Shown in pieces: positions 1,127-18,972 of a DNA stretch of 64,000 nt (positions are counted from its first letter, which is position 1; every line of letters begins with the position of its first letter). The notes under the pieces were generated by a model. The model had not been told where the DNA came from and searched no databases. It saw only the letters and a list, made by a program, of their open reading frames with translations. A program made the position numbers and the translations under genes. The DNA comes from a virus. The stretch spans positions 1 to 64,000 of the IMG/VR virus record IMGVR_UViG_3300012271_000010; one strand, 5' to 3'.

Positions 1127-1424
1127 GGGGAATCTATGGAATCGATAAAGCAAGGAGGATAATTTACACAAGGAAGCCAGCCAACGAATGCTTTGATCAG
1201 CGTTGGAAAAAATAACTGCAAACGATAACATCGAACAGTTCGCTCCTATTGCTCTAGCAGCGTAGAAAGCCGGGTGTCAACTACCTCGGAACAGAAAGTT
1301 GAGAAAAGTGAGTGCGAGAAGAAAGAAAGAAGGATTTCAATATCCTAAAAATTGAATAACCTTGTAAGAAAGTAAATTATAGAAATTGTTTTAGACACCG
1401 GTTCGAATCCGGTATTCTCCACCA
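1127..1424 (+). ncRNA. ssrA: tmRNA, one-piece; tag peptide (A)ANDNIEQFAPIALAA
   Basis: ggggaat/attctcc acceptor with G3.U70, GAC + T arm + ACCA end; ataact-GCA resume codon at 1218, tag ORF ends TAG at 1265. Confidence 0.93.
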
Positions 1425-2342: not shown

Positions 2343-2416
2343 GAGGCAGAAATATAGGTTCGAATCCTGTTGTCAACATTGTGTTGACCTCGTCTAACTG
2401 GTCAGGACGCTGCCGT
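2343..2416 (+). ncRNA. Circularly permuted tRNA-like RNA (3' half precedes 5' half; YrlA-like topology)
   Basis: Order is ggcag, T arm (atagg-ttcgaat-cctgt), gtcaaca-ttg-tgttgac closed acceptor, D arm (gtct-aactggtca-ggac), ctgcc. Confidence 0.75.
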
Positions 2417-2447
2417 TTTTTAAACTTCTTAAAGAAAAGGAACATAA

Positions 2448-3075: not shown

Positions 3076-3164
3076 GGCGGGGCGGAGACTGTTGGATGTC
3101 TCGTAGATCTCATAAGTCTATTTCCTCATGGAAGACGCATGTTCGATTCATGCCCCCGCACCCA
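3076..3164 (+). tRNA. tRNA-Met(CAT), initiator-like 1:72 mismatch, long variable arm
   Basis: ggcgggg/ccccgca (G1.A72), tagat-ctCATaa-gtcta, ttcc-tcat-ggaa variable hairpin, CCA. Confidence 0.75.
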
Positions 3165-4077: not shown

Positions 4078-4350
4078 ATGCCACTATTCAGAACTTTGCT
4101 TAATGATATGGAAAAAACTTTTGAAAGAGTGAAAGAGGCTGAATTTTTTAAGAAATATGGATTATGTCTTATATGCAAAGAAAGATCTGCAAGAGTTCAA
4201 AATCCACAAGTCACTAAAGAAGATATGATTTGTTTAGAATGTGAGGATAAGAGAGTCAACAAATTAACAACTGCGAGCCCAACTGGAACTCCAGTCTCAT
4301 TTTTCTCAAATGTTGTTGTTTATGATTATGAGCCGCTAGAAGAAGAGTAG
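4078..4350 (+). CDS. Hypothetical protein with two CxxC motifs (zinc finger)
   Basis: CLIC...CLEC; AAGGA RBS. Confidence 0.6.
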   Translation: MPLFRTLLNDMEKTFERVKEAEFFKKYGLCLICKERSARVQNPQVTKEDMICLECEDKRVNKLTTASPTGTPVSFFSNVVVYDYEPLEEE

Positions 4351-5384: not shown

Positions 5385-6314
5385 ATGTCGAAATCGTACA
5401 AACTTGTTCTATCTGGGTCTGGTACTCGTTACCCATGTTTTATTGGAGCGGTAAAACGTCTCCTGGAAGAAGGTCTTGAAATAGAAGAGGTTTGTGGGAC
5501 CAGCGGCGGTGGAATTATTGCCGCTGGTCTTGGATGGAAGTATGATAAAGAAAATCCTCTTGATTCTATTAAATTTTTAGAAGATATGGCATTATCTCTT
5601 TTACCATCTGATTTGTTAGACCCTCATTGGTTTGATTTTGCTCTATCTTTTCGATGGAAGAATCTTTTCCACGGATATAACTTCAGTCCTCTGAATTTGT
5701 TTAGAAAAAATAAAGACGTCCTTACTCTTGATCCGAAGAAAATGGTTTTGACGAGAAACACTAACGGAATGTTTAAGGGTAATAAAATTCTTAAAGTTTT
5801 AGAGAAATCGCTGCCAGAAGATCTTGAATTGAAAATTCCAGTTGTTATTACAACATTCAATAACAACTGGAGAGTGGTAGATTTTTGGAAAAGAGAGAAA
5901 GGTAACACTGGTGATTTAGCAAAATTAGTTAGAGCTACTCTTTCTCTACCGATAATTTTTGATCCTGTTATGATTGAAGGAGACTTACATTCTGACGGTG
6001 GAAATATTGCTAATTTCCCACTTGATGTTTTTGGACGAGATGCTAAAGTTATTGGGTTGACATTCGAAGGAATGAATCCAACACGAGTAGTAATTGATGA
6101 TAAACTTGATATTGCTGGAGCCAATCTAGACGGTATGATGAACGCGTCAATGGAAGAAGATATCCACGACGCCGGTCCAAACGCCCATGTTTGTCAGATA
6201 CGCACTAGACACACTGGTCTCAACCTTATGATGACTCCTGCCGACGTCGCAGAACAAATACTCGACGGATATGACAGTGTGTCCCGGTGGCTCAAAGAAA
6301 ATCCAGATCTGTAA
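5385..6314 (+). CDS. Patatin-like phospholipase
   Basis: LVLSGSGTR oxyanion loop, GTSGG nucleophile elbow, DGG catalytic Asp. Confidence 0.88.
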   Translation: MSKSYKLVLSGSGTRYPCFIGAVKRLLEEGLEIEEVCGTSGGGIIAAGLGWKYDKENPLDSIKFLEDMALSLLPSDLLDPHWFDFALSFRWKNLFHGYNFSPLNLFRKNKDVLTLDPKKMVLTRNTNGMFKGNKILKVLEKSLPEDLELKIPVVITTFNNNWRVVDFWKREKGNTGDLAKLVRATLSLPIIFDPVMIEGDLHSDGGNIANFPLDVFGRDAKVIGLTFEGMNPTRVVIDDKLDIAGANLDGMMNASMEEDIHDAGPNAHVCQIRTRHTGLNLMMTPADVAEQILDGYDSVSRWLKENPDL

Positions 6315-6744: not shown

Positions 6745-6824
6745 GCGCTTGTATACCCTCCCGCTACGAACGGGTCGAAAGGTTAACTGGATACATGTGA
6801 GTTCGACTCTCCCCAAGCGTACCA
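6745..6824 (+). tRNA. Non-canonical tRNA-Arg(ACG) with split/re-threaded D arm
   Basis: gcgcttg/caagcgt + ACCA, cccg-ctACGaa-cggg, T arm; only tatacc between acceptor and anticodon arm; ggttaactggata lies 3' of the anticodon arm. Confidence 0.7.
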
Positions 6825-6915: not shown

Positions 6916-7082
6916 TGTTCGGTAGTGTAATGGATTTCCGTAAAAAGGGTGGACTAGGACCCTGATTTGGAAAATCAATACCTGTGTAATGAGGAGCACG
7001 CACTTTTCATTATGTAGCAAAAATTGACGCACGCGCTTCTCATGAGAACGTAGAGGAGGTTCGATTCCTTCCTGAACAGCCA
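6916..7082 (+). ncRNA. tRNA-like RNA (CAT anticodon) with ~95-nt structured insertion in the D loop
   Basis: tgttcgg/ctgaaca + GCCA; D stem gtgt(6925)/gcac(7029); cgctt-ctCATga-gaacg; ggagg-ttcgatt-ccttc T arm. Confidence 0.7.
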
Positions 7083-7387: not shown

Positions 7388-7448
7388 GCTCTCTCTAGAG
7401 GAGCTAGATAAAGCCGATGAAACAGTTCGATTCTGTTAGAGAGCACCA
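7388..7448 (+). ncRNA. Mini tRNA-like RNA lacking a normal anticodon arm
   Basis: gctctct/agagagc + ACCA, aacag-ttcgatt-ctgtt T arm, only 26 nt in between. Confidence 0.7.
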
Positions 7449-9253: not shown

Positions 9254-9397
9254 ATGATTGATTTCATCTTGAGAAAGATTAGAAAGAGAATTGAGCCAAA
9301 AAATATGTGTGATTCTTGTACAAGGAAGTATACATGCCAGACCAAAAGTGGTAAGATGCTCTGTGAACGATGTTATAAAAGGGAATTAAATGTCTAA
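9254..9397 (+). CDS. Small Cys-rich zinc-finger protein (47 aa, below the ORF-track cutoff)
   Basis: MIDFILRKIRKRIEPKNMCDSCTRKYTCQTKSGKMLCERCYKRELNV, read manually. Confidence 0.45.
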   Translation: MIDFILRKIRKRIEPKNMCDSCTRKYTCQTKSGKMLCERCYKRELNV

Positions 9398-10583
9398 ATC
9401 GGAAACAAAGCGATGCGCTATATGTGGAAATACGAATTCTAGGAAAGGTAAGACGCAGTTTTGTTCAACCAAGTGTTATTTAGAGTCTAATAGAAGTGTA
9501 AAGAAATGTGAAGTTTGTAAAAAAGAATATTCTTATATATCTTTTTATGAAAAAAGGACGTGTTCTAGAAAATGCGGAGCTAAAATAAATGCTTCATGTT
9601 ATCAAAAAGACCCAAAAACATGGGTAACGACAAAATGCAATATTTGCAATAAAGATTTTGATGTACGAATCAAAAGGTTGAAGAGGACCAAGAACGTGTT
9701 ATGCAGCACTAAATGTTCTGCGGAATTTAGATCTATTAACTTTAATCATGATCGGATATTGAATCACTATTCTGGATTCTTTTCATCTCTTAAATCAGGA
9801 GGTGAAAAGAAAATTAGATTTGATTCCTCTTGGGAATTGAGAAGGTTTAAAGAATTAGAATTTGATCCAAAAGTCATTCTATGGGATAGATGTCAAGATA
9901 AAATACTTTGGTATGATTCTGACAATAAAAAGCATCATTATAATCCAGATATTTATATTGAGTACGAAGACGGTAAAAGAGTAGTGGAAGAAATTAAAGG
10001 ATTCATGAATGAAGAATCTAAATTAAAAATTGAAGCTGGCGAAGAGTTTTACGACAGAACAGAAATATTATTTCGGGTAATAGATAATAAGAATATCTTA
10101 TTTGATAAAAAACTTGAATATAAAACAGAAGAGTATGAAAATGATTATGGAATATTTAATCGACTTAAAATGGAATATATTTGGATGTCTCTAGCAATTA
10201 TGTTAGCAAGCAAATCTACTTGTTCTCGATTAAAAGTAGGTTCAGTTATAACCGATTCTGGCATGAATAGAGCACTTTGTGTTGGATATAATGGAGATGA
10301 AAAAGGGGGCAAAAACCAGTGTGAAAGTTTAAAACCAGGAAAATGTGGTTGTTTGCATGCTGAAACTAACGCGATAGCGAAATCCCGCGAATCACTAGAA
10401 AATTGTATCTTATTCGTAACAACAGCACCTTGCAAATCTTGCGTTAAGTTGATTATTAACTCAGGTATAAGAGAAGTAATATATAATGAAGTTTATAGGG
10501 ACACTAGTGGACTCAAATTGATGAAACAGCGTGGTCTTAAAGTAACACGTTTTAGCAAAATTGAAGATGATACCCTTCTTTAG
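9390..10583 (+). CDS. Fusion: CxxC zinc-repeat region + TnsA/gp4-like PD-(D/E)xK endonuclease + dCMP deaminase
   Basis: Repeated CxxC...CSxxC; SSWE...YNPDIYI...EEIKG; C-terminal STC-KVG, GYNG, HAETNAI, PCKSC deaminase motifs. Confidence 0.8.
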   Translation: MSKSETKRCAICGNTNSRKGKTQFCSTKCYLESNRSVKKCEVCKKEYSYISFYEKRTCSRKCGAKINASCYQKDPKTWVTTKCNICNKDFDVRIKRLKRTKNVLCSTKCSAEFRSINFNHDRILNHYSGFFSSLKSGGEKKIRFDSSWELRRFKELEFDPKVILWDRCQDKILWYDSDNKKHHYNPDIYIEYEDGKRVVEEIKGFMNEESKLKIEAGEEFYDRTEILFRVIDNKNILFDKKLEYKTEEYENDYGIFNRLKMEYIWMSLAIMLASKSTCSRLKVGSVITDSGMNRALCVGYNGDEKGGKNQCESLKPGKCGCLHAETNAIAKSRESLENCILFVTTAPCKSCVKLIINSGIREVIYNEVYRDTSGLKLMKQRGLKVTRFSKIEDDTLL

Positions 10584-11553: not shown

Positions 11554-11826
11554 TGTTCGTGCTGCCGTCGTTTGGATAGCTGGCAGCCACTTGCACCGAA
11601 AGAAGTCTCAGCTGAACCTGCGAATCGAAAGTGAAGCGGGGAGAAAGATGACTTGAGGTTTGAGGTTCGATAGGAGGGGCGTCGCTGCCCCAAAAATGTG
11701 CCTCGCGCGTGGTGAGTTCTTGATAGTAGGAAAAGGTGTACTGAGAATGCACTAAAGTACAAAATCATAGCCCTGTCAGTCTCAGACAGAGCGAAAAGAC
11801 TTAGGGTTCAATCCCCTACACGAACA
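11554..11826 (+). ncRNA. Unidentified 273-nt structured RNA with tRNA-like 8-bp acceptor and T arm
   Basis: tgttcgtg/cacgaaca ends, taggg-ttcaatc-cccta T arm, GC-rich multi-hairpin interior in an AT-rich genome. Confidence 0.65.
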
Positions 11827-11851: not shown

Positions 11852-12469
11852 ATGAGTGACAAATTACTTGGAAAAATGATCAAAGAGTTGACTGAAAACA
11901 ATATCAGTATAAAATTTGTAAACAAAAGTACTCTTGAAGATGATAGTCCAATGTTGGGGTTTTTCTGTGAATTGGATAAATTAATCGAAGTAGGAACTCT
12001 CGACGACGGCTGGTTTCAGACTTTCGCTCATGAATATTGTCACTTTAAACAGTGGAAAGATGGTCTCTTTGACGATATAACAACAATAGCTGCATATGCC
12101 ACATTAGATAATTGGGTGGACAGGAACAGAGAACTACCATCAGAAACAGTAAAGAAATTTATCCGTTGCATGCAGTTTATTGAATGGGACAATGAAAAAC
12201 GTACAATTGAATTTCTTGATAAAAACAAAATTGATTATGACAGAGAAGCTTATGTTAAGAAAGCTAACGTTTATGTTGCTTCTCATGAATTAACAAGACG
12301 TATTAGACGATGGCAAAGTAAACCATTGAGTACTGTTCCCGGAGTAAGTGATTTATTTTCAGGGGAAGAAATGATGCTAGAAAGAGATTTTGGGAATCTC
12401 CCAGAAGGTTTTGAAGCATTAGCAATTTCATCTTTTGAAGAAGTTATCGTTGAGGAAGAAGAGGATTAA
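11852..12469 (+). CDS. HExxH zinc-metallopeptidase-like protein
   Basis: FAHEYCH motif with a downstream E. Confidence 0.6.
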   Translation: MSDKLLGKMIKELTENNISIKFVNKSTLEDDSPMLGFFCELDKLIEVGTLDDGWFQTFAHEYCHFKQWKDGLFDDITTIAAYATLDNWVDRNRELPSETVKKFIRCMQFIEWDNEKRTIEFLDKNKIDYDREAYVKKANVYVASHELTRRIRRWQSKPLSTVPGVSDLFSGEEMMLERDFGNLPEGFEALAISSFEEVIVEEEED

Positions 12470-12514: not shown

Positions 12515-12603
12515 GGGAGACTTTCCTCGCGGTTGGCTGTAAACCAATTACCATAATAAGCGGGGTGGACGGTGAGAAGGTTCAATTCCTTAGTCTCCCA
12601 CCA
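12515..12603 (+). tRNA. Non-canonical tRNA-Tyr(GTA) with split/re-threaded D arm
   Basis: gggagac/gtctccc + ACCA, gttgg-ctGTAaa-ccaat; cctcgc (5' of anticodon arm) pairs with gcgggg (3' of it), followed by tggacggt and the T arm. Confidence 0.7.
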
Positions 12604-12624: not shown

Positions 12625-12713
12625 GGTGGCTGTGCTGGAAATGGTAGACAGGCTGGGCTGTGAACCCGGTGTTTGATAAAGACGTGCGAGTTCGAAGCTC
12701 GTCAGTCACCCCA
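12625..12713 (+). tRNA. tRNA-His(GTG) with class-II-like long variable arm
   Basis: G-1/C73, gtggctg/cagtcac, ctggg-ctGTGaa-cccgg, tgttt..agacg variable hairpin, CCA. Confidence 0.85.
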
Positions 12714-13405: not shown

Positions 13406-13483
13406 AGGTTAGTAGAGAATTGGTATATCGAGGGGATTCAAACTTCCCTGTCTATGTGGGTTCGAGTCCCACCTAACCTACCA
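13406..13483 (+). tRNA. tRNA-Leu(CAA), short variable region
   Basis: aggttag/ctaacct, gggga-ttCAAac-ttccc, CCA. Confidence 0.8.
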
Positions 13484-15615: not shown

Positions 15616-15733
15616 TGTCCCACCAGAATTTTATCAATTGGCGCACCCACGACCCGCACTATGTTTGGAAACAAGGTGTTAGTTATGGAGGAAGTTCTTG
15701 CTGGATTCCAGCGATTAGATAAAAAATAAGTTT

Positions 15734-15807
15734 GGCTGTGTATTCCAACTGGCAGAGAAGATCGACTTAGAATCGATACAGTGTGGGTTCGACTCCCACC
15801 ACAGCTA
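15734..15807 (+). tRNA. tRNA-Leu(TAG), short variable region
   Basis: ggctgtg/cacagct, A73, atcga-ctTAGaa-tcgat; no encoded CCA. Confidence 0.85.
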
Positions 15808-16006
15808 GGAATGAAAAGTTAAAGTACCTGCATGCGGTTCATTCTGCACGACCCTTGATTTGGTCGACTAAATCTTTAACGATTAACCAGTATTTGTCTT
15901 TAGCTTTTTGATTCATTTTAATTATCGAGGAGTGAGTTGCACTGGATACGTCAACGGTTATTGGCAAACGGTCTCTTACGGCTGTTAAAAAACAAAGAAA
16001 TAAAAC

Positions 16007-17598: not shown

Positions 17599-18972
17599 AT
17601 GGCTAAAAAAAATATATATGTGCTAGACACGAACGTGTACTTGACAAACGCTAAAGCAATTTATGATTATGGAATTCATGATATTGTAGTCCCTATGAAA
17701 GTTCTTGAAGAAATCGACAAACATAAAAATAGACAAGACTCGGTTGGCTCGCAAGCGAGAAGCACGATTAGAACTTTAGATTCTTTGAGAGAACGCGGAA
17801 ATCTGAAAGCAGGTGTCCGAATTGCTAAAGGACGCGGTATTTGTCGTGTTGCAGAATCTGATACTTCACTTCTTCCTGTTGATTTGAGCCCTGACGTACC
17901 AGATAATATGATTCTTTCAACCGCTCTGTCGGTACAGAAAGAAGAAGATGCAGTCTCATTGAGGCTGTCAGCCTCAAATTTTGAAGCAACCGGCGCGAAG
18001 AAAACAAAAAAGAAAGTAATTCTTGTCACTCGTGATATCAATATGAGAGTTATTTGTGATGCTATTGGATTTCCAGTAGAAACTTATGAGCCAGAAAGTG
18101 CTGTCGAAGACAGTGATCTTCTATATTCAGGATATTCGGAAGTCCTAGTCGATGATGAATTTATTGATCGCTTTTATCAAGGCAGTGTCTCCGAATTACC
18201 AGAAGGTACTTTGAAACACGCTCCTCAACCAAATGAATTCTTGATGCTGGTCGCAAAAGGTAATGATAAAAAGACTGCTTTGGCTAGATACAAACACGGT
18301 GGTGATATTGTTCGGGTTGGCGATAGAAATGAACTGTTTGGTATTAGATCTCGTAACCGCGAACAATCTTTTGCTTTAGACCTTTTGGTTGATGATAATA
18401 TTAAAATAATTACTCTTGTTGGAAAAGCAGGATCTGGCAAGACACTTTGTGCGATTGCAGCTGGATTGAGTCAATCTCTTGAAAAAGATACTCCATATAA
18501 AAAACTTATTGTCTCTAGACCAATTCAGCCAATGGGAAAAGATATTGGATATTTGCCAGGTGATATCAACGAAAAGATGCTTCCTTGGTTAGCTCCAATC
18601 CAAGACAATTTACAATTTCTTCTCGGTGACGATAAAGAAATGTTAGCGGAGTACATTGAAAAAGGCAAAATTGAGCTTGAAGCTTTGACTTATATTCGTG
18701 GTCGCTCAATTTCTAACGCTTTCATCATCATTGATGAAGCTCAAAATTTGACCATTCACGAACTGAAGACAATTATCACCCGTGTCGGTGAAAATACGAA
18801 AATCGTCCTCACGGGTGATATCGAACAAATCGACAATGCGTTTGTCAACGATGTTACAAACGGACTTACGCATGCCGTCGAAAAATTCAAGTTTTCAGAC
18901 CTAGCTGGTCATGTAAGTTTGATCAAGGGCGAAAGGTCAAAAGTTGCCACACTTGCGGCTGCTTGCCTATAA
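17599..18972 (+). CDS. phoH: PIN-domain PhoH-family ATPase (PhoH2-like)
   Basis: VLDTNV PIN motif, TRDINMR; GKAGSGKT Walker A, GYLPG, RGRS, DEAQN, GDxxQ. Confidence 0.93.
   Translation: MAKKNIYVLDTNVYLTNAKAIYDYGIHDIVVPMKVLEEIDKHKNRQDSVGSQARSTIRTLDSLRERGNLKAGVRIAKGRGICRVAESDTSLLPVDLSPDVPDNMILSTALSVQKEEDAVSLRLSASNFEATGAKKTKKKVILVTRDINMRVICDAIGFPVETYEPESAVEDSDLLYSGYSEVLVDDEFIDRFYQGSVSELPEGTLKHAPQPNEFLMLVAKGNDKKTALARYKHGGDIVRVGDRNELFGIRSRNREQSFALDLLVDDNIKIITLVGKAGSGKTLCAIAAGLSQSLEKDTPYKKLIVSRPIQPMGKDIGYLPGDINEKMLPWLAPIQDNLQFLLGDDKEMLAEYIEKGKIELEALTYIRGRSISNAFIIIDEAQNLTIHELKTIITRVGENTKIVLTGDIEQIDNAFVNDVTNGLTHAVEKFKFSDLAGHVSLIKGERSKVATLAAACL

What the first reader, a model, noticed from the sequence alone, without database searches (positions are those of the whole stretch)
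12515..12603. Second, sequence-unrelated re-threaded tRNA (Tyr-GTA) with the same topology
Seen: after the acceptor come ttt-cctcgc and then the anticodon arm directly. An A-rich linker follows, then gcgggg (6 bp with cctcgc) and a GG-containing tggacggtga loop entering the T arm. This is the same architecture as 6745-6824 in a different isoacceptor, and it is the only Tyr tRNA in the window. Two independent instances suggest a real structural class that standard tRNA finders would miss or call pseudo. Inference: it may evade host tRNA-targeting defence nucleases or modification enzymes.
Basis: partly seen in the sequence, partly recalled or inferred. Interest (0 to 1): 0.85.

Follow-up and report, generated by a model that had tools for sequence, protein, structure and literature searches.

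The report
Pseudoknotted phage tyrosine tRNA, no D-hairpin
This 89-base phage gene is very probably a working tyrosine tRNA that is not a cloverleaf: it has no D hairpin and builds that helix by pairing with a strand inside its variable arm, a conserved design that gene finders miss.

Summary
Window 12515-12603(+) has an 8-bp acceptor, UU, strand X (CCTCGC), the anticodon arm (GUA), Y (UACC), an A/U linker, X' (GCGGGG), UGGAC, Y' (GGUG), a 4-bp T stem and ACCA. ARAGORN and Rfam's tRNA model miss it.

It belongs to a large family. In 91 distinct viral genes and 80 genes from bacterial genomes, X/X' and Y/Y' both covary (96-98% and 90-92% of cells paired; 0 of 500 shuffles reach this). The 'rival' tacc/ggtg stem is therefore part of the fold, and the core is a pseudoknot.

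The two nearest relatives carry an ordinary tRNA-Tyr at the same array slot. In two complete phage genomes it was the only Tyr-type match to a loose Tyr pattern. The cultured phage crAss001 holds an unannotated copy. Planctomycete chromosomes carry it inside accessory tRNA arrays, beside a normal housekeeping tRNA-Tyr.

The sister gene at 6745-6824 (Arg-ACG) belongs to a second covarying family with the same re-threading but no Y/Y'.

Expression, charging and any role in evading nucleases are untested.

I found no description in the papers I could search. This scan has already reported both designs on other DNA.

The parts
12515..12522 (+). Acceptor stem, 5' strand (8 nt, GGGAGACT)
   Evidence: Pairs with 12592-12599. 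All 8 pairs of this helix show double changes in the family; 98.9% of cells paired, 99.1% in the bacterial set.
12523..12524 (+). Two-base spacer UU (place of nucleotides 8-9)
   Evidence: TT in 64 of 78 viral and 33 of 69 genome-set parses.
12525..12530 (+). Strand X (CCTCGC), 5' strand of the helix that replaces the D stem
   Evidence: Pairs with X' at 12560-12565. The helix is 95.9% paired with 5 of 7 pairs showing double changes in 91 viral genes, and 97.7% paired with 4 of 6 in the bacterial set.
12532..12548 (+). Anticodon arm: 5-bp stem GTTGG/CCAAT and loop CTGTAAA, anticodon GTA (Tyr) at 12539-12541
   Evidence: Sequence. The stem is 99.6% paired with 5 of 5 pairs showing double changes.
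12549..12552 (+). Strand Y (TACC), 5' strand of the variable-arm-like stem
   Evidence: Pairs with Y' at 12571-12574. The helix is 91.8% paired with 3 of 4 pairs showing double changes, and 90.5% paired with 3 of 5.
12553..12559 (+). A/U-rich linker (ATAATAA)
   Evidence: In the family the linker is 5-10 nt. It is 92% A+U in the viral genes and 77% in the bacterial set.
12560..12565 (+). Strand X' (GCGGGG), inside the loop closed by Y/Y'
   Evidence: X < Y < X' < Y' gives crossing helices, that is a pseudoknot.
12566..12570 (+). GG loop (TGGAC), candidate equivalent of D-loop G18 G19
   Evidence: TGG follows X' in 77 of 78 viral and 67 of 69 genome parses. However, TGG was part of the search patterns, so this conservation is not independent. 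The role is inferred.
12571..12574 (+). Strand Y' (GGTG)
12577..12591 (+). T arm: 4-bp stem AAGG/CCTT and loop TTCAATT
   Evidence: Sequence. Stem 84.9% paired in the viral set; its outermost pair is unpaired in 42 of 91. 97.2% paired in the bacterial set.
12592..12603 (+). Acceptor 3' strand AGTCTCCC, discriminator A (12600) and encoded CCA (12601-12603)
   Evidence: Discriminator A in 78 of 78 viral and 68 of 69 genome parses. CCA is encoded in 54 of 78 and 15 of 69.
6745..6824 (+). Sister gene: re-threaded tRNA-Arg(ACG), class I version. Acceptor 6745-6751/6814-6820; X ACC 6755-6757 (+T 6759) pairs with X' (A)GGT 6780-6783; an Arg-type D-loop sequence TAACTGGATA follows X'.
   Evidence: 27 distinct family members. 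X/X' has 4 of 4 pairs with double changes; 97.0% of all cells paired against 70.4% in shuffles. A homologue sits in the relative's contig.

Best explanation
This is a genuine elongator tRNA-Tyr(GUA) gene of a widespread non-cloverleaf class.

Structure. The RNA has normal ends (8-bp acceptor, A73, CCA), a normal anticodon arm and a normal T loop, but no D hairpin. Six bases right after the acceptor (X) pair with six bases (X') that lie inside the loop of a short variable-arm stem (Y/Y'). X runs straight into the 5' strand of the anticodon stem. X/X' can therefore stack on the anticodon stem where the D stem normally sits. X' runs up to the elbow and is followed at once by UGG, placed to touch the T loop as G18 G19 do. 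In effect the chain is threaded differently through a tRNA-like core: the 5' D-stem strand and GG loop are moved to the 3' side of the anticodon arm.

What is shown: both helices, the family and its genomic settings.

What is inferred: the L-shape, charging by host TyrRS (A73, G34, U35 and a variable-arm stem are kept), and use on the ribosome as the Tyr member of an accessory, phage-type tRNA set.

Why this design is used is not known. The most plausible reason is that rebuilding the D and variable region removes what tRNA-Tyr-directed defence nucleases recognise or cut. I hold that with low confidence.
For: (1) Anatomy at the stated coordinates.

(2) Family. They yielded 90 distinct genes plus the window's.

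(3) Covariation on a structure-blind MAFFT alignment of 91 genes. 95.3% of cells are paired against 72.0% in shuffles (0 of 500 reach it) and 40-57% when partners are slid. X/X' is 95.9% paired with 5 of 7 pairs showing double changes. Y/Y' is 91.8% paired with 3 of 4.

(4) Replication in a bacterial-genome set of 79 genes plus the window's: 96.9% against 79.1%; X/X' 97.7% (4 of 6); Y/Y' 90.5% (3 of 5).

(5) Positional orthology. In the two nearest relatives (neighbouring ORF 46-48% identical) the slot ORF-Tyr-His-...-Leu-Leu, with a conserved upstream flank, holds an ordinary class II tRNA-Tyr.

(6) It sits in tRNA arrays. 100 loci with such a gene hold 1154 ARAGORN tRNAs, and only 12 of the 100 also hold a separate ordinary tRNA-Tyr. 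In two complete phage genomes with terminal repeats it is the only Tyr-type match. In crAss001 it fills an unannotated gap in an array whose 23 listed tRNAs include no Tyr.

(7) Identity elements. Discriminator A in 78 of 78 viral and 68 of 69 genome parses. Four sister genes in planctomycete arrays with anticodon GCA (Cys) all have U at the discriminator, as CysRS identity requires by established knowledge.

(8) The gene is letter-identical in contigs of two other lake metagenome runs, while the flank differs.
Against: There is no evidence of transcription, processing, charging or decoding. No RNA run holds the stretch.

For this single sequence the thermodynamic optimum is a non-tRNA fold at -30.1 kcal/mol that lacks the anticodon hairpin. 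The nested tRNA-like fold with X/X' scores -25.2, and the fold with Y/Y' instead scores -20.7. The z-score of the fold is only -2.0.

That X/X' and Y/Y' form at the same time is not shown; covariation would also fit two alternating states.

UGG conservation was imposed by my search patterns.

Complete planctomycete genomes keep a normal housekeeping tRNA-Tyr as well, and 12 of 100 viral loci also hold a canonical Tyr. So the gene is nowhere proven to be indispensable.

The gene sets were gathered with patterns that fix the anticodon loop and T loop, and with an acceptor filter. Those parts are therefore not independent evidence.
Confidence: 0.75

Rival explanations
1. A tRNA-like decoy or regulator. 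The RNA is made and folds as described but is not used in translation. It might soak up a tRNA-Tyr-directed nuclease, a modification enzyme or TyrRS, or act as a sensor.
For: Planctomycete genomes keep a canonical tRNA-Tyr beside it. No charging or expression data exist (one search lists no RNA holder). Other odd tRNA-like genes are flagged in this window by first-reader notes (unchecked).
Against: It occupies the Tyr slot of arrays that otherwise lack Tyr. A73, GUA, an intact 7-nt anticodon loop with U33 and a purine at 37, and an encoded CCA are all kept. The Cys-anticodon derivatives switch the discriminator to U in 4 of 4, which makes sense only if synthetases read them.
Confidence: 0.12
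2. A two-state RNA. X/X' and Y/Y' are both selected but form alternately, for example as a folding intermediate or switch, rather than as one pseudoknot.
For: Both helices covary, and covariation cannot tell simultaneous from alternating pairing. The loop between X' and Y' is short, 3-6 nt.
Against: The two helices use different bases, so nothing forces a choice. The linker (5-10 nt) and the GG loop (3-6 nt) vary only within narrow limits, as expected for a fixed three-dimensional arrangement. This is an inference, not a test.
Confidence: 0.08
3. A decayed tRNA-Tyr pseudogene or a chance look-alike.
For: Gene finders reject it. The minimum-energy fold is not tRNA-like.
Against: About 170 distinct genes keep five helices through compensatory changes. 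Shuffled windows give 0-2 descriptor hits. The sequence is identical in contigs of two other lake metagenome runs.
Confidence: 0.02
4. The transcript is rearranged into a normal cloverleaf, by cutting and rejoining as in the permuted tRNA genes of algae.
For: None from my calls. It is considered only because permuted tRNA genes are known (recalled).
Against: The termini are already normal (acceptor 5' and 3' strands at the two ends, CCA encoded). The change is a transposition of an internal segment, which circularisation and one cut cannot undo. Bacteria and phages are not known to have such a pathway (established knowledge).
Confidence: 0.02

Closest known systems
Canonical bacterial and phage class II tRNA-Tyr(GUA), Rfam RF00005 cloverleaf (for example the genes at the same slot in relatives L002 3655-3746 and L003 3674-3762)
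   Same: Anticodon loop CUGUAAA, A73, G1-C72, T loop, a stem at the variable-arm position, place in the array.
   Different: No D hairpin. The D-type helix is made with a strand from the variable-arm loop (a pseudoknot). 8/4 instead of 7/5. Fails the Rfam gathering score and ARAGORN.
(8/4) allo-tRNAs, 8/4 tRNA-Ser and tRNA-His of phages, and tRNA-Sec (Mukai et al. 2017, PMC5389517; abstract and passages read)
   Same: A 12-bp acceptor/T branch split 8/4, a long (6-7 bp) D-type helix, occurrence in phage tRNA clusters. tRNA-Sec is the best weak Rfam match.
   Different: Those tRNAs keep an ordinary D hairpin with a tetraloop and an ordinary variable-arm hairpin. None is described with Tyr identity or a pseudoknot. 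The tRNA-Sec score here is 25.7, below the 47-bit gathering score.
D-arm-lacking mitochondrial tRNAs of nematodes and others (review PMC7609411, passages read)
   Same: No D hairpin, yet functional in translation.
   Different: Those replace the arm by a short flexible connector and are shortened. Here the helix is rebuilt from a distant strand and the RNA is full length (89 nt). ARAGORN's mitochondrial mode does not call it.
Re-threaded phage tRNA-Arg(ACG) family (window 6745-6824 and 26 other distinct genes)
   Same: One D-stem strand lies before the anticodon arm. The other strand and the GG loop lie after it. Missed by ARAGORN. Found in phage tRNA clusters.
   Different: Class I version: 7/5, helix of 3-4 bp, a full Arg-type D-loop sequence, no Y/Y' stem and so no pseudoknot. 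No sequence similarity to the Tyr family. It did not co-occur with the Tyr type in the other loci I hold.
Candidate structured RNA 'DNAVirus_1423' of Fremin and Bhatt 2023 (PMC10690425, passages read)
   Same: A covarying RNA motif from IMG/VR that only sometimes overlaps an ARAGORN tRNA-Tyr call. ARAGORN overlapped 2 of the genes I collected in 100 loci.
   Different: I could not see its figure or supplementary table, so identity is unproven. The text I read describes neither a missing D hairpin nor a pseudoknot.
Aminoacylatable viral tRNA-like structures with pseudoknots (plant-virus TLS; recalled, plus the listing of bioRxiv 10.1101/2020.09.18.302638)
   Same: Show that synthetases, including TyrRS, can charge RNAs that are not cloverleaves.
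   Different: Those are 3' ends of RNA virus genomes with no decoding role. This is a free-standing gene with an anticodon arm in a tRNA array.

Membership tests
Canonical tRNA (Rfam RF00005) / class II tRNA-Tyr | Reaches the family's curated score with the cloverleaf model | tested here: not met
   No RF00005 match at the gathering score. At the E-value threshold only tRNA-Sec, 25.7 bits. 0 of 15 family genes were hit in 14 sources that gave 89 ordinary tRNA hits.
Canonical tRNA (Rfam RF00005) / class II tRNA-Tyr | D hairpin between nucleotide 9 and the anticodon stem | tested here: not met
   Only 9 bases (TT CCTCGC G) lie between the acceptor and the anticodon stem. ARAGORN finds no gene in five modes.
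Canonical tRNA (Rfam RF00005) / class II tRNA-Tyr | Anticodon arm (5 bp, 7-nt loop, U33, purine 37), T loop TTCRANN, acceptor helix, A73 and GUA | tested here: met
   Sequence; helices covary; discriminator A in 78 of 78 and 68 of 69.
Canonical tRNA (Rfam RF00005) / class II tRNA-Tyr | Charged with tyrosine and used by the ribosome | not testable with these tools
   No RNA run holds the stretch. No biochemical data.
Pseudoknotted D-hairpin-less tRNA-Tyr class (defined here by descriptor) | Acc8-NN-X(6-7)-anticodon arm-Y(4-5)-A/U linker-X'-UGG(N)-Y'-short T stem, with X/X' and Y/Y' complementary | tested here: met
   The window's gene passes the strict descriptor. All 91 strict hits in 2.2 Mb carry GTA.
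(8/4) allo-tRNA / tRNA-Sec-like tRNAs | 8/4 (or 9/3) split of the 12-bp acceptor/T branch | tested here: met
   The eighth acceptor pair covaries and the outermost 7/5 T-stem pair is often unpaired.
(8/4) allo-tRNA / tRNA-Sec-like tRNAs | Long D stem closed by a tetraloop, and an ordinary long variable-arm hairpin | tested here: not met
   No D hairpin. X' lies within the Y/Y' loop. tRNA-Sec model 25.7 bits, below the 47-bit cut-off.
D-arm-lacking mitochondrial-type tRNA | D arm replaced by a short unpaired connector; truncated size | tested here: not met
   89 nt, with a covarying replacement helix. ARAGORN -mt does not call it.
Permuted tRNA genes (algal type) | 3' half encoded upstream of the 5' half, with the mature ends internal to the gene | tested here: not met
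   The acceptor 5' and 3' strands are at the two ends and CCA is at the 3' end.

The most novel reading that the evidence does not exclude
Re-threaded tRNAs are fully active elongator tRNAs that reach the L-shape with a different backbone path. There is a class I form (Arg) and a pseudoknotted class II form (Tyr, with Cys and Arg-UCU derivatives). Phages and mobile bacterial tRNA arrays have selected them because the rebuilt D and variable region escapes tRNA-directed immune nucleases such as the Septu and retron-Eco7 PtuAB enzymes, which cut the variable arm of tRNA-Tyr. That would make them natural immune-proof spare tRNAs and ready-made orthogonal tRNA scaffolds.
Probability: 0.3. Interest if true: 0.92.

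Novelty: new variant of a known kind. Interest (0 to 1): 0.8.

Why it matters
The cloverleaf is treated as universal outside mitochondria. A conserved, full-length tRNA whose core is a pseudoknot would show that the L-shape can be reached by another chain topology. Here it is found in hundreds of phage tRNA clusters, in the cultured gut phage crAss001 and in tRNA arrays on planctomycete chromosomes.

It also means that tRNA counts for phages and arrays are systematically short of Tyr. A published survey lists Tyr and Cys among the rarest array isotypes (PMC4758250, passage read).

It gives a concrete, testable candidate for how spare tRNAs might resist tRNA-Tyr-cutting defence systems.

It also offers a natural scaffold for engineering orthogonal tRNAs.

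Tried and rejected
**Gene finders.**
- ARAGORN by default and with -i, -ps, -ps80 -i and -mt gave no call for either odd gene. The -ps80 -i run gave only a spurious 'Ser with a 122-nt intron' spanning the region.
- Rfam at the gathering score gave nothing.

**Single-sequence folding.** It does not recover the anticodon hairpin. I set it aside in favour of comparative evidence.

**Cultured phages.** blastn of the window's gene and of a consensus-like member against 50,697 phage records gave no match. The crAss001 copy was found only with a pattern.

**RNA evidence.**
- No RNA holder is listed.
- The laid runs were DNA contigs only and show nothing about expression.

**Ideas rejected.**
- That planctomycetes use this gene as their only tRNA-Tyr. 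Four genomes each also have a canonical Tyr in a Thr-Tyr-Gly-Thr cluster or on its own.
- That ORF 9390-10583 is a TadA-type tRNA deaminase serving the Arg(ACG) gene. Its best matches are dCMP-deaminase/ComEB-type, all below their cut-offs.

**Co-occurrence of the Arg type and the Tyr type elsewhere.** 0 of 34, 0 of 99 and 0 of 76 loci, limited by the flanks I hold.

**Other isoacceptors with the pseudoknot.** Strict scan: none in 2.2 Mb. Relaxed scans: one Arg-TCT in L183 and Cys-GCA in L249, L259, L278 and L303.

**Rows I dropped.**
- L090, a chance pattern match, from the alignment.
- L013/L017: they show X/X' and Y/Y' but their acceptor failed my filter of 7 pairs out of 8.
- 14 of 90 genome loci gave no descriptor parse. 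5 of 90 had no 8-bp acceptor parse.
- A relaxed-scan hit 'GGA' in L321 that looks like chance.
- Hits at 2990, 3934 and 4350 in the window, which are alternative parses of ARAGORN tRNAs.
- 8 of 34 Arg-pattern loci: 7 had no acceptor parse and 1 was a duplicate sequence.

**Other checks.**
- The promoter scan gave no + strand site just upstream of the gene.
- I built no covariance model and made no 3-D model.
- tRNAscan-SE was not available.
- Supplementary files of papers were closed. The tables and figures of PMC10690425 may show whether its motif DNAVirus_1423 is this family.

**Literature searches for a prior description.** Searches turned up none in the library held.
Full report
**What is in the sequence.** Window 12515-12603 (+) reads GGGAGACT TT CCTCGC G GTTGG CTGTAAA CCAAT TACC ATAATAA GCGGGG TGGAC GGTG AG AAGG TTCAATT CCTT AGTCTCCC A CCA. 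The acceptor, anticodon arm (GTA, Tyr), T arm and ACCA are ordinary. Only nine bases separate the acceptor from the anticodon stem, so there is no D hairpin.
- ARAGORN genes in the window but not this one.
- It also fails with introns allowed, with lowered thresholds and in mitochondrial mode.
- Rfam's tRNA model does not reach its gathering score.
- With permissive settings the only match is tRNA-Sec at 25.7 bits (cut-off 47), and it skips the D region.

The window is the first 64 kb of a 72,110-base IMG/VR virus record estimated to be 40% complete. A loose Tyr pattern finds no other Tyr-type gene in that record.

**It belongs to a large family.**
- A scan of viral contigs for the Tyr anticodon loop plus the T loop gave nine stretches. 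Five of them (three distinct sequences) showed the same layout with different X and X' letters.
- After requiring only an 8-bp acceptor (at least 7 of 8 pairs), I had 90 distinct genes plus the window's. One chance match (L090) and the window's own copy (L001) were dropped.
- A structure-blind MAFFT alignment (A1) was scored against the structure I proposed.

| Measure (91 genes) | Result |
|---|---|
| Cells paired, whole structure | 95.3% |
| Same, in shuffles | 72.0% (0 of 500 reach the observed value) |
| Same, with partners slid | 40-57% |
| Acceptor, 8 pairs | 98.9% paired, 8 of 8 with double changes |
| X/X' | 95.9% paired, 5 of 7 with double changes |
| Anticodon stem | 99.6% paired, 5 of 5 |
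| Y/Y' | 91.8% paired, 3 of 4 |
| 4-bp T stem | 84.9% paired |

The selection patterns fixed the anticodon loop, UGG and the T loop, and the filter fixed the acceptor. They imposed nothing on X/X' or Y/Y'.

**The 'rival' stem is part of the fold.** It is helix Y/Y'. Examples across the family are UGCC/GGCA, UGUC/GACG, UGGC/GCCG and UGCAC/GUGCG. The order along the chain is X, Y, X', Y', so the two helices cross and the core is a pseudoknot. Y follows the anticodon stem directly and Y' precedes the T stem by one or two bases. That is exactly where the long variable arm of a class II tRNA is attached. X' and the UGG lie in its loop.

The acceptor/T branch is 8/4. The eighth acceptor pair covaries, and the pair that would be the fifth T-stem pair in a 7/5 reading (in the window, G12576 opposite A12592) is a mismatch here.

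**Replication in bacteria.** The same pattern scanned over one genome per prokaryotic species gave 90 stretches. By their titles, 64 of the 80 rows shown are Planctomycetota. They include the complete chromosomes of Lacipirellula limnantheis I41 and Schlesneria sp. T3-172.
- 76 of 90 parse with my descriptor.
- 79 distinct genes plus the window's were aligned (A3).
- Scoring gave 96.9% paired against 79.1% in shuffles (0 of 500), X/X' 97.7% (4 of 6 with double changes) and Y/Y' 90.5% (3 of 5).

These genes mostly lack an encoded CCA (15 of 69 have one), against 54 of 78 viral genes.

I first thought planctomycetes might use this as their only tRNA-Tyr. They do not. Each of four genomes also has a canonical tRNA-Tyr. 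In three of them it lies in a Thr-Tyr-Gly-Thr cluster. In three of the four genomes the knotted gene lies inside a dense array of 22-26 tRNAs. Of the 90 genome loci, 53 hold ten or more tRNAs within the DNA fetched, at most 8 kb. So the design belongs to accessory tRNA arrays in phages and bacteria alike.

**Evidence that it stands in for tRNA-Tyr.**
- The two nearest relatives I could find have a neighbouring ORF 46-48% identical. They keep the order ORF, Tyr, His, then two Leu, and a conserved stretch just upstream of the Tyr gene. Their Tyr gene is an ordinary class II cloverleaf.
- In 100 viral loci with a knotted gene there are 1154 ARAGORN tRNAs. Only 12 of those loci also hold a separate canonical Tyr, and ARAGORN overlaps only 2 of the knotted genes.
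- In two complete phage genomes with terminal repeats, the knotted gene is the only match to a loose Tyr pattern that is not a Thr tRNA or a non-tRNA site.
A pattern search of MH675552.1 finds one match. It lies in the 170-base unannotated gap between tRNA-Lys t16 and tRNA-Phe t17. It reads as a knotted Tyr gene with X ACATCA / X' TGATGT and Y CTCC / Y' GGAG, here 7/5. The 23 tRNAs listed in that part of the record include no Tyr. The paper reports 25 tRNAs found with ARAGORN (PMC6235969, passages).
- The discriminator is A in 78 of 78 viral and 68 of 69 genome parses.
- Four planctomycete loci carry a sister gene next to the Tyr gene with anticodon GCA, and all four have U at the discriminator. 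From established knowledge, U73 is the CysRS identity base.
- Rfam reaches its gathering score on 0 of 15 such genes in 14 sources that yield 89 ordinary tRNA hits.

**The sister gene in this window.** 6745-6824 (Arg, ACG) does not fit the Tyr descriptor. It has no Y/Y' and its anticodon stem has four pairs plus U.U. It is nevertheless real.
- The contig of relative L003 carries a homologue with compensatory changes in the acceptor and anticodon stems.
- A pattern scan found 34 stretches, of which 26 gave distinct genes with an acceptor.
- In the alignment (A2) a short helix covaries between three bases before the anticodon arm and three after it: ACC/GGU, GCC/GGC, GGC/GCC, AAC/GUU, CAC/GUG, CGC/GCG, CCC/GGG, CUC/GAG, ACU/AGU and ACA/UGU.
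- All 4 of its pairs show double changes, and 97.0% of all cells are paired against 70.4% in shuffles. Eight rows sit in another register, which lowers that helix to 85%.
- The 3' strand is followed by UAAYUGGAUA. From recall, this is the usual tRNA-Arg D loop.

So the Arg gene is a class I tRNA in which the 5' D-stem strand plus the D loop have been moved behind the anticodon arm. The Tyr gene is the class II version of the same move, with the moved segment sitting in the variable-arm loop. In the window these are the only two D-hairpin-less candidates that are not alternative parses of ordinary tRNAs.

**How it most likely works (inferred).**
- X runs into the 5' strand of the anticodon stem with zero or one base between. 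X/X' can therefore stack on the anticodon stem in the place of the D stem.
- X then occupies the path of nucleotides 22-25 and X' that of 10-13, and X' leads at the elbow end into UGG.
- In a normal tRNA, positions 8-9, 21-22 and 44-46 are spatial neighbours in the core (recalled tertiary pairs 8-14-21, 10-25-45 and 13-22-46). Re-joining 9 to 22, 45 to 10 and 21 to 46 need not disturb the fold.
- For Tyr the helix is 6-7 bp, the GG loop only 3-6 nt and the branch 8/4. This recalls tRNA-Sec and allo-tRNAs.
- The A/U-rich linker of 5-10 nt (92% A+U in phages) would run back along X/X'.

None of this geometry is tested.

**Why phages would want it.** Published work shows that Septu and retron-Eco7 stop phages by cutting tRNA-Tyr in the stem of its variable arm. 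It also reports that T5's own tRNA-Tyr resists because of a distinctive variable loop (PMC13096335, passages; PMC11555353, passages). A tRNA-Tyr whose variable arm and D arm are fused into a knot is a reasonable way to escape such enzymes. I tested nothing that bears on this, and planctomycete arrays may have other reasons.

**Results against my reading.**
- No RNA run holds the stretch.
- The DNA contigs of two other lake runs carry the gene unchanged, with a 6-base insertion and one substitution only in the flank. That is weak support for constraint and says nothing about expression.
- The minimum-energy fold of the single sequence (-30.1 kcal/mol) is not tRNA-like. It beats the nested tRNA-like fold with X/X' (-25.2).
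- Simultaneous formation of the two helices is not shown.

**Novelty.** Five full-text searches found no description of a D-hairpin-less, pseudoknotted tRNA-Tyr. Neither did passages of the review of non-canonical tRNAs (PMC7609411) or of the allo-tRNA paper (PMC5389517).

The nearest mention is a candidate structured RNA from IMG/VR that 'only sometimes' overlaps ARAGORN tRNA-Tyr calls (PMC10690425). I could not see its figure or tables.

A survey of tRNA arrays lists Tyr and Cys among the rarest isotypes (PMC4758250). That would follow if such genes go undetected.

Within this scan the design is not new. Eight earlier notes on other genomes describe the knotted Tyr gene and eight describe the re-threaded Arg gene. 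I treated them as leads and re-derived the evidence here.

- The syntenic replacement of a canonical Tyr in the nearest relatives.
- The finding that the bacterial copies are mainly in tRNA arrays of Planctomycetota, beside a normal housekeeping gene.
- The U73 Cys derivatives.
- The link between the class I and class II forms within one phage.

Noticed in passing
window 6745-6824 (+): Re-threaded tRNA-Arg(ACG). The D-stem strand ACC lies before the anticodon arm. GGT plus an Arg-type D loop (TAACTGGATA) lies after it. ARAGORN misses it. 26 further distinct genes in viral contigs covary.
   Followed up: yes
L249 1057-1142 (-), L259 1202-1287 (-), L278 995-1080 (+), L303 4788-4873 (+): Knotted tRNA of the same design with anticodon GCA (Cys) and U at the discriminator. 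It lies 300-400 bases from the knotted Tyr gene in planctomycete tRNA arrays and looks like a duplicate of the Tyr gene that changed identity.
   Followed up: partly
L183 6967-7052 (-), a complete 176-kb phage genome: One knotted gene with anticodon TCT (Arg) and one mismatch in Y/Y'. The same genome also has a knotted Tyr gene and canonical Arg(acg).
   Followed up: no
MH675552.1 about 4141-4226 (L240 1481-1566): Cultured Bacteroides phage crAss001 has an unannotated knotted tRNA-Tyr in the gap between tRNA-Lys t16 and tRNA-Phe t17. The 23 tRNAs listed in that part of the record include neither Tyr nor Cys.
   Followed up: yes
window 12626-12713, 1035-1119, 3076-3164: Several ARAGORN tRNAs are unusually long for their type: His 88 nt with a hairpin in the variable region (also in relatives L002 and L003), Thr(tgt) 85 nt and Met 89 nt. 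Long Thr, Cys and Pro tRNAs also occur in other phage arrays.
   Followed up: no
window 13406-13483, 15733-15808; L335, L337, L341: tRNA-Leu genes of only 73-78 nt, too short for the usual long variable arm of Leu. They occur here and in the planctomycete arrays.
   Followed up: no
window 1127-1424 (+): The phage encodes a tmRNA (Rfam 79.5 bits; ARAGORN tag peptide ANDNIEQFAPIALAA) at the head of the tRNA cluster.
   Followed up: no
L169 1335-1425 (-): A viral contig that holds two knotted Tyr genes (L169, L171) also has a match to Rfam tRNA-Sec just at its gathering score (47.3 against 47).
   Followed up: no
window 12497 and 12449: Contigs of other lake metagenome runs carry a 6-base insertion (CATACC) behind 12497. 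One run has G>C at 12449. Both lie in the flank upstream of the tRNA, while the tRNA itself is unchanged in the two contigs that span it (X2, X9).
   Followed up: no
window 2343-2420, 6916-7082, 7388-7448, 11554-11826: First-reader notes on this window flag four more odd tRNA-like RNAs: a permuted one, one with a D-loop insert, a mini-tRNA and a 273-nt RNA with tRNA-like ends. I did not examine them.
   Followed up: no
window 5385-6314, 9390-10583, 17599-18972: Genes among and beside the tRNAs: a patatin-like phospholipase, a 397-aa protein with a C-terminal dCMP-deaminase-type domain, and a PIN+PhoH protein.
   Followed up: partly
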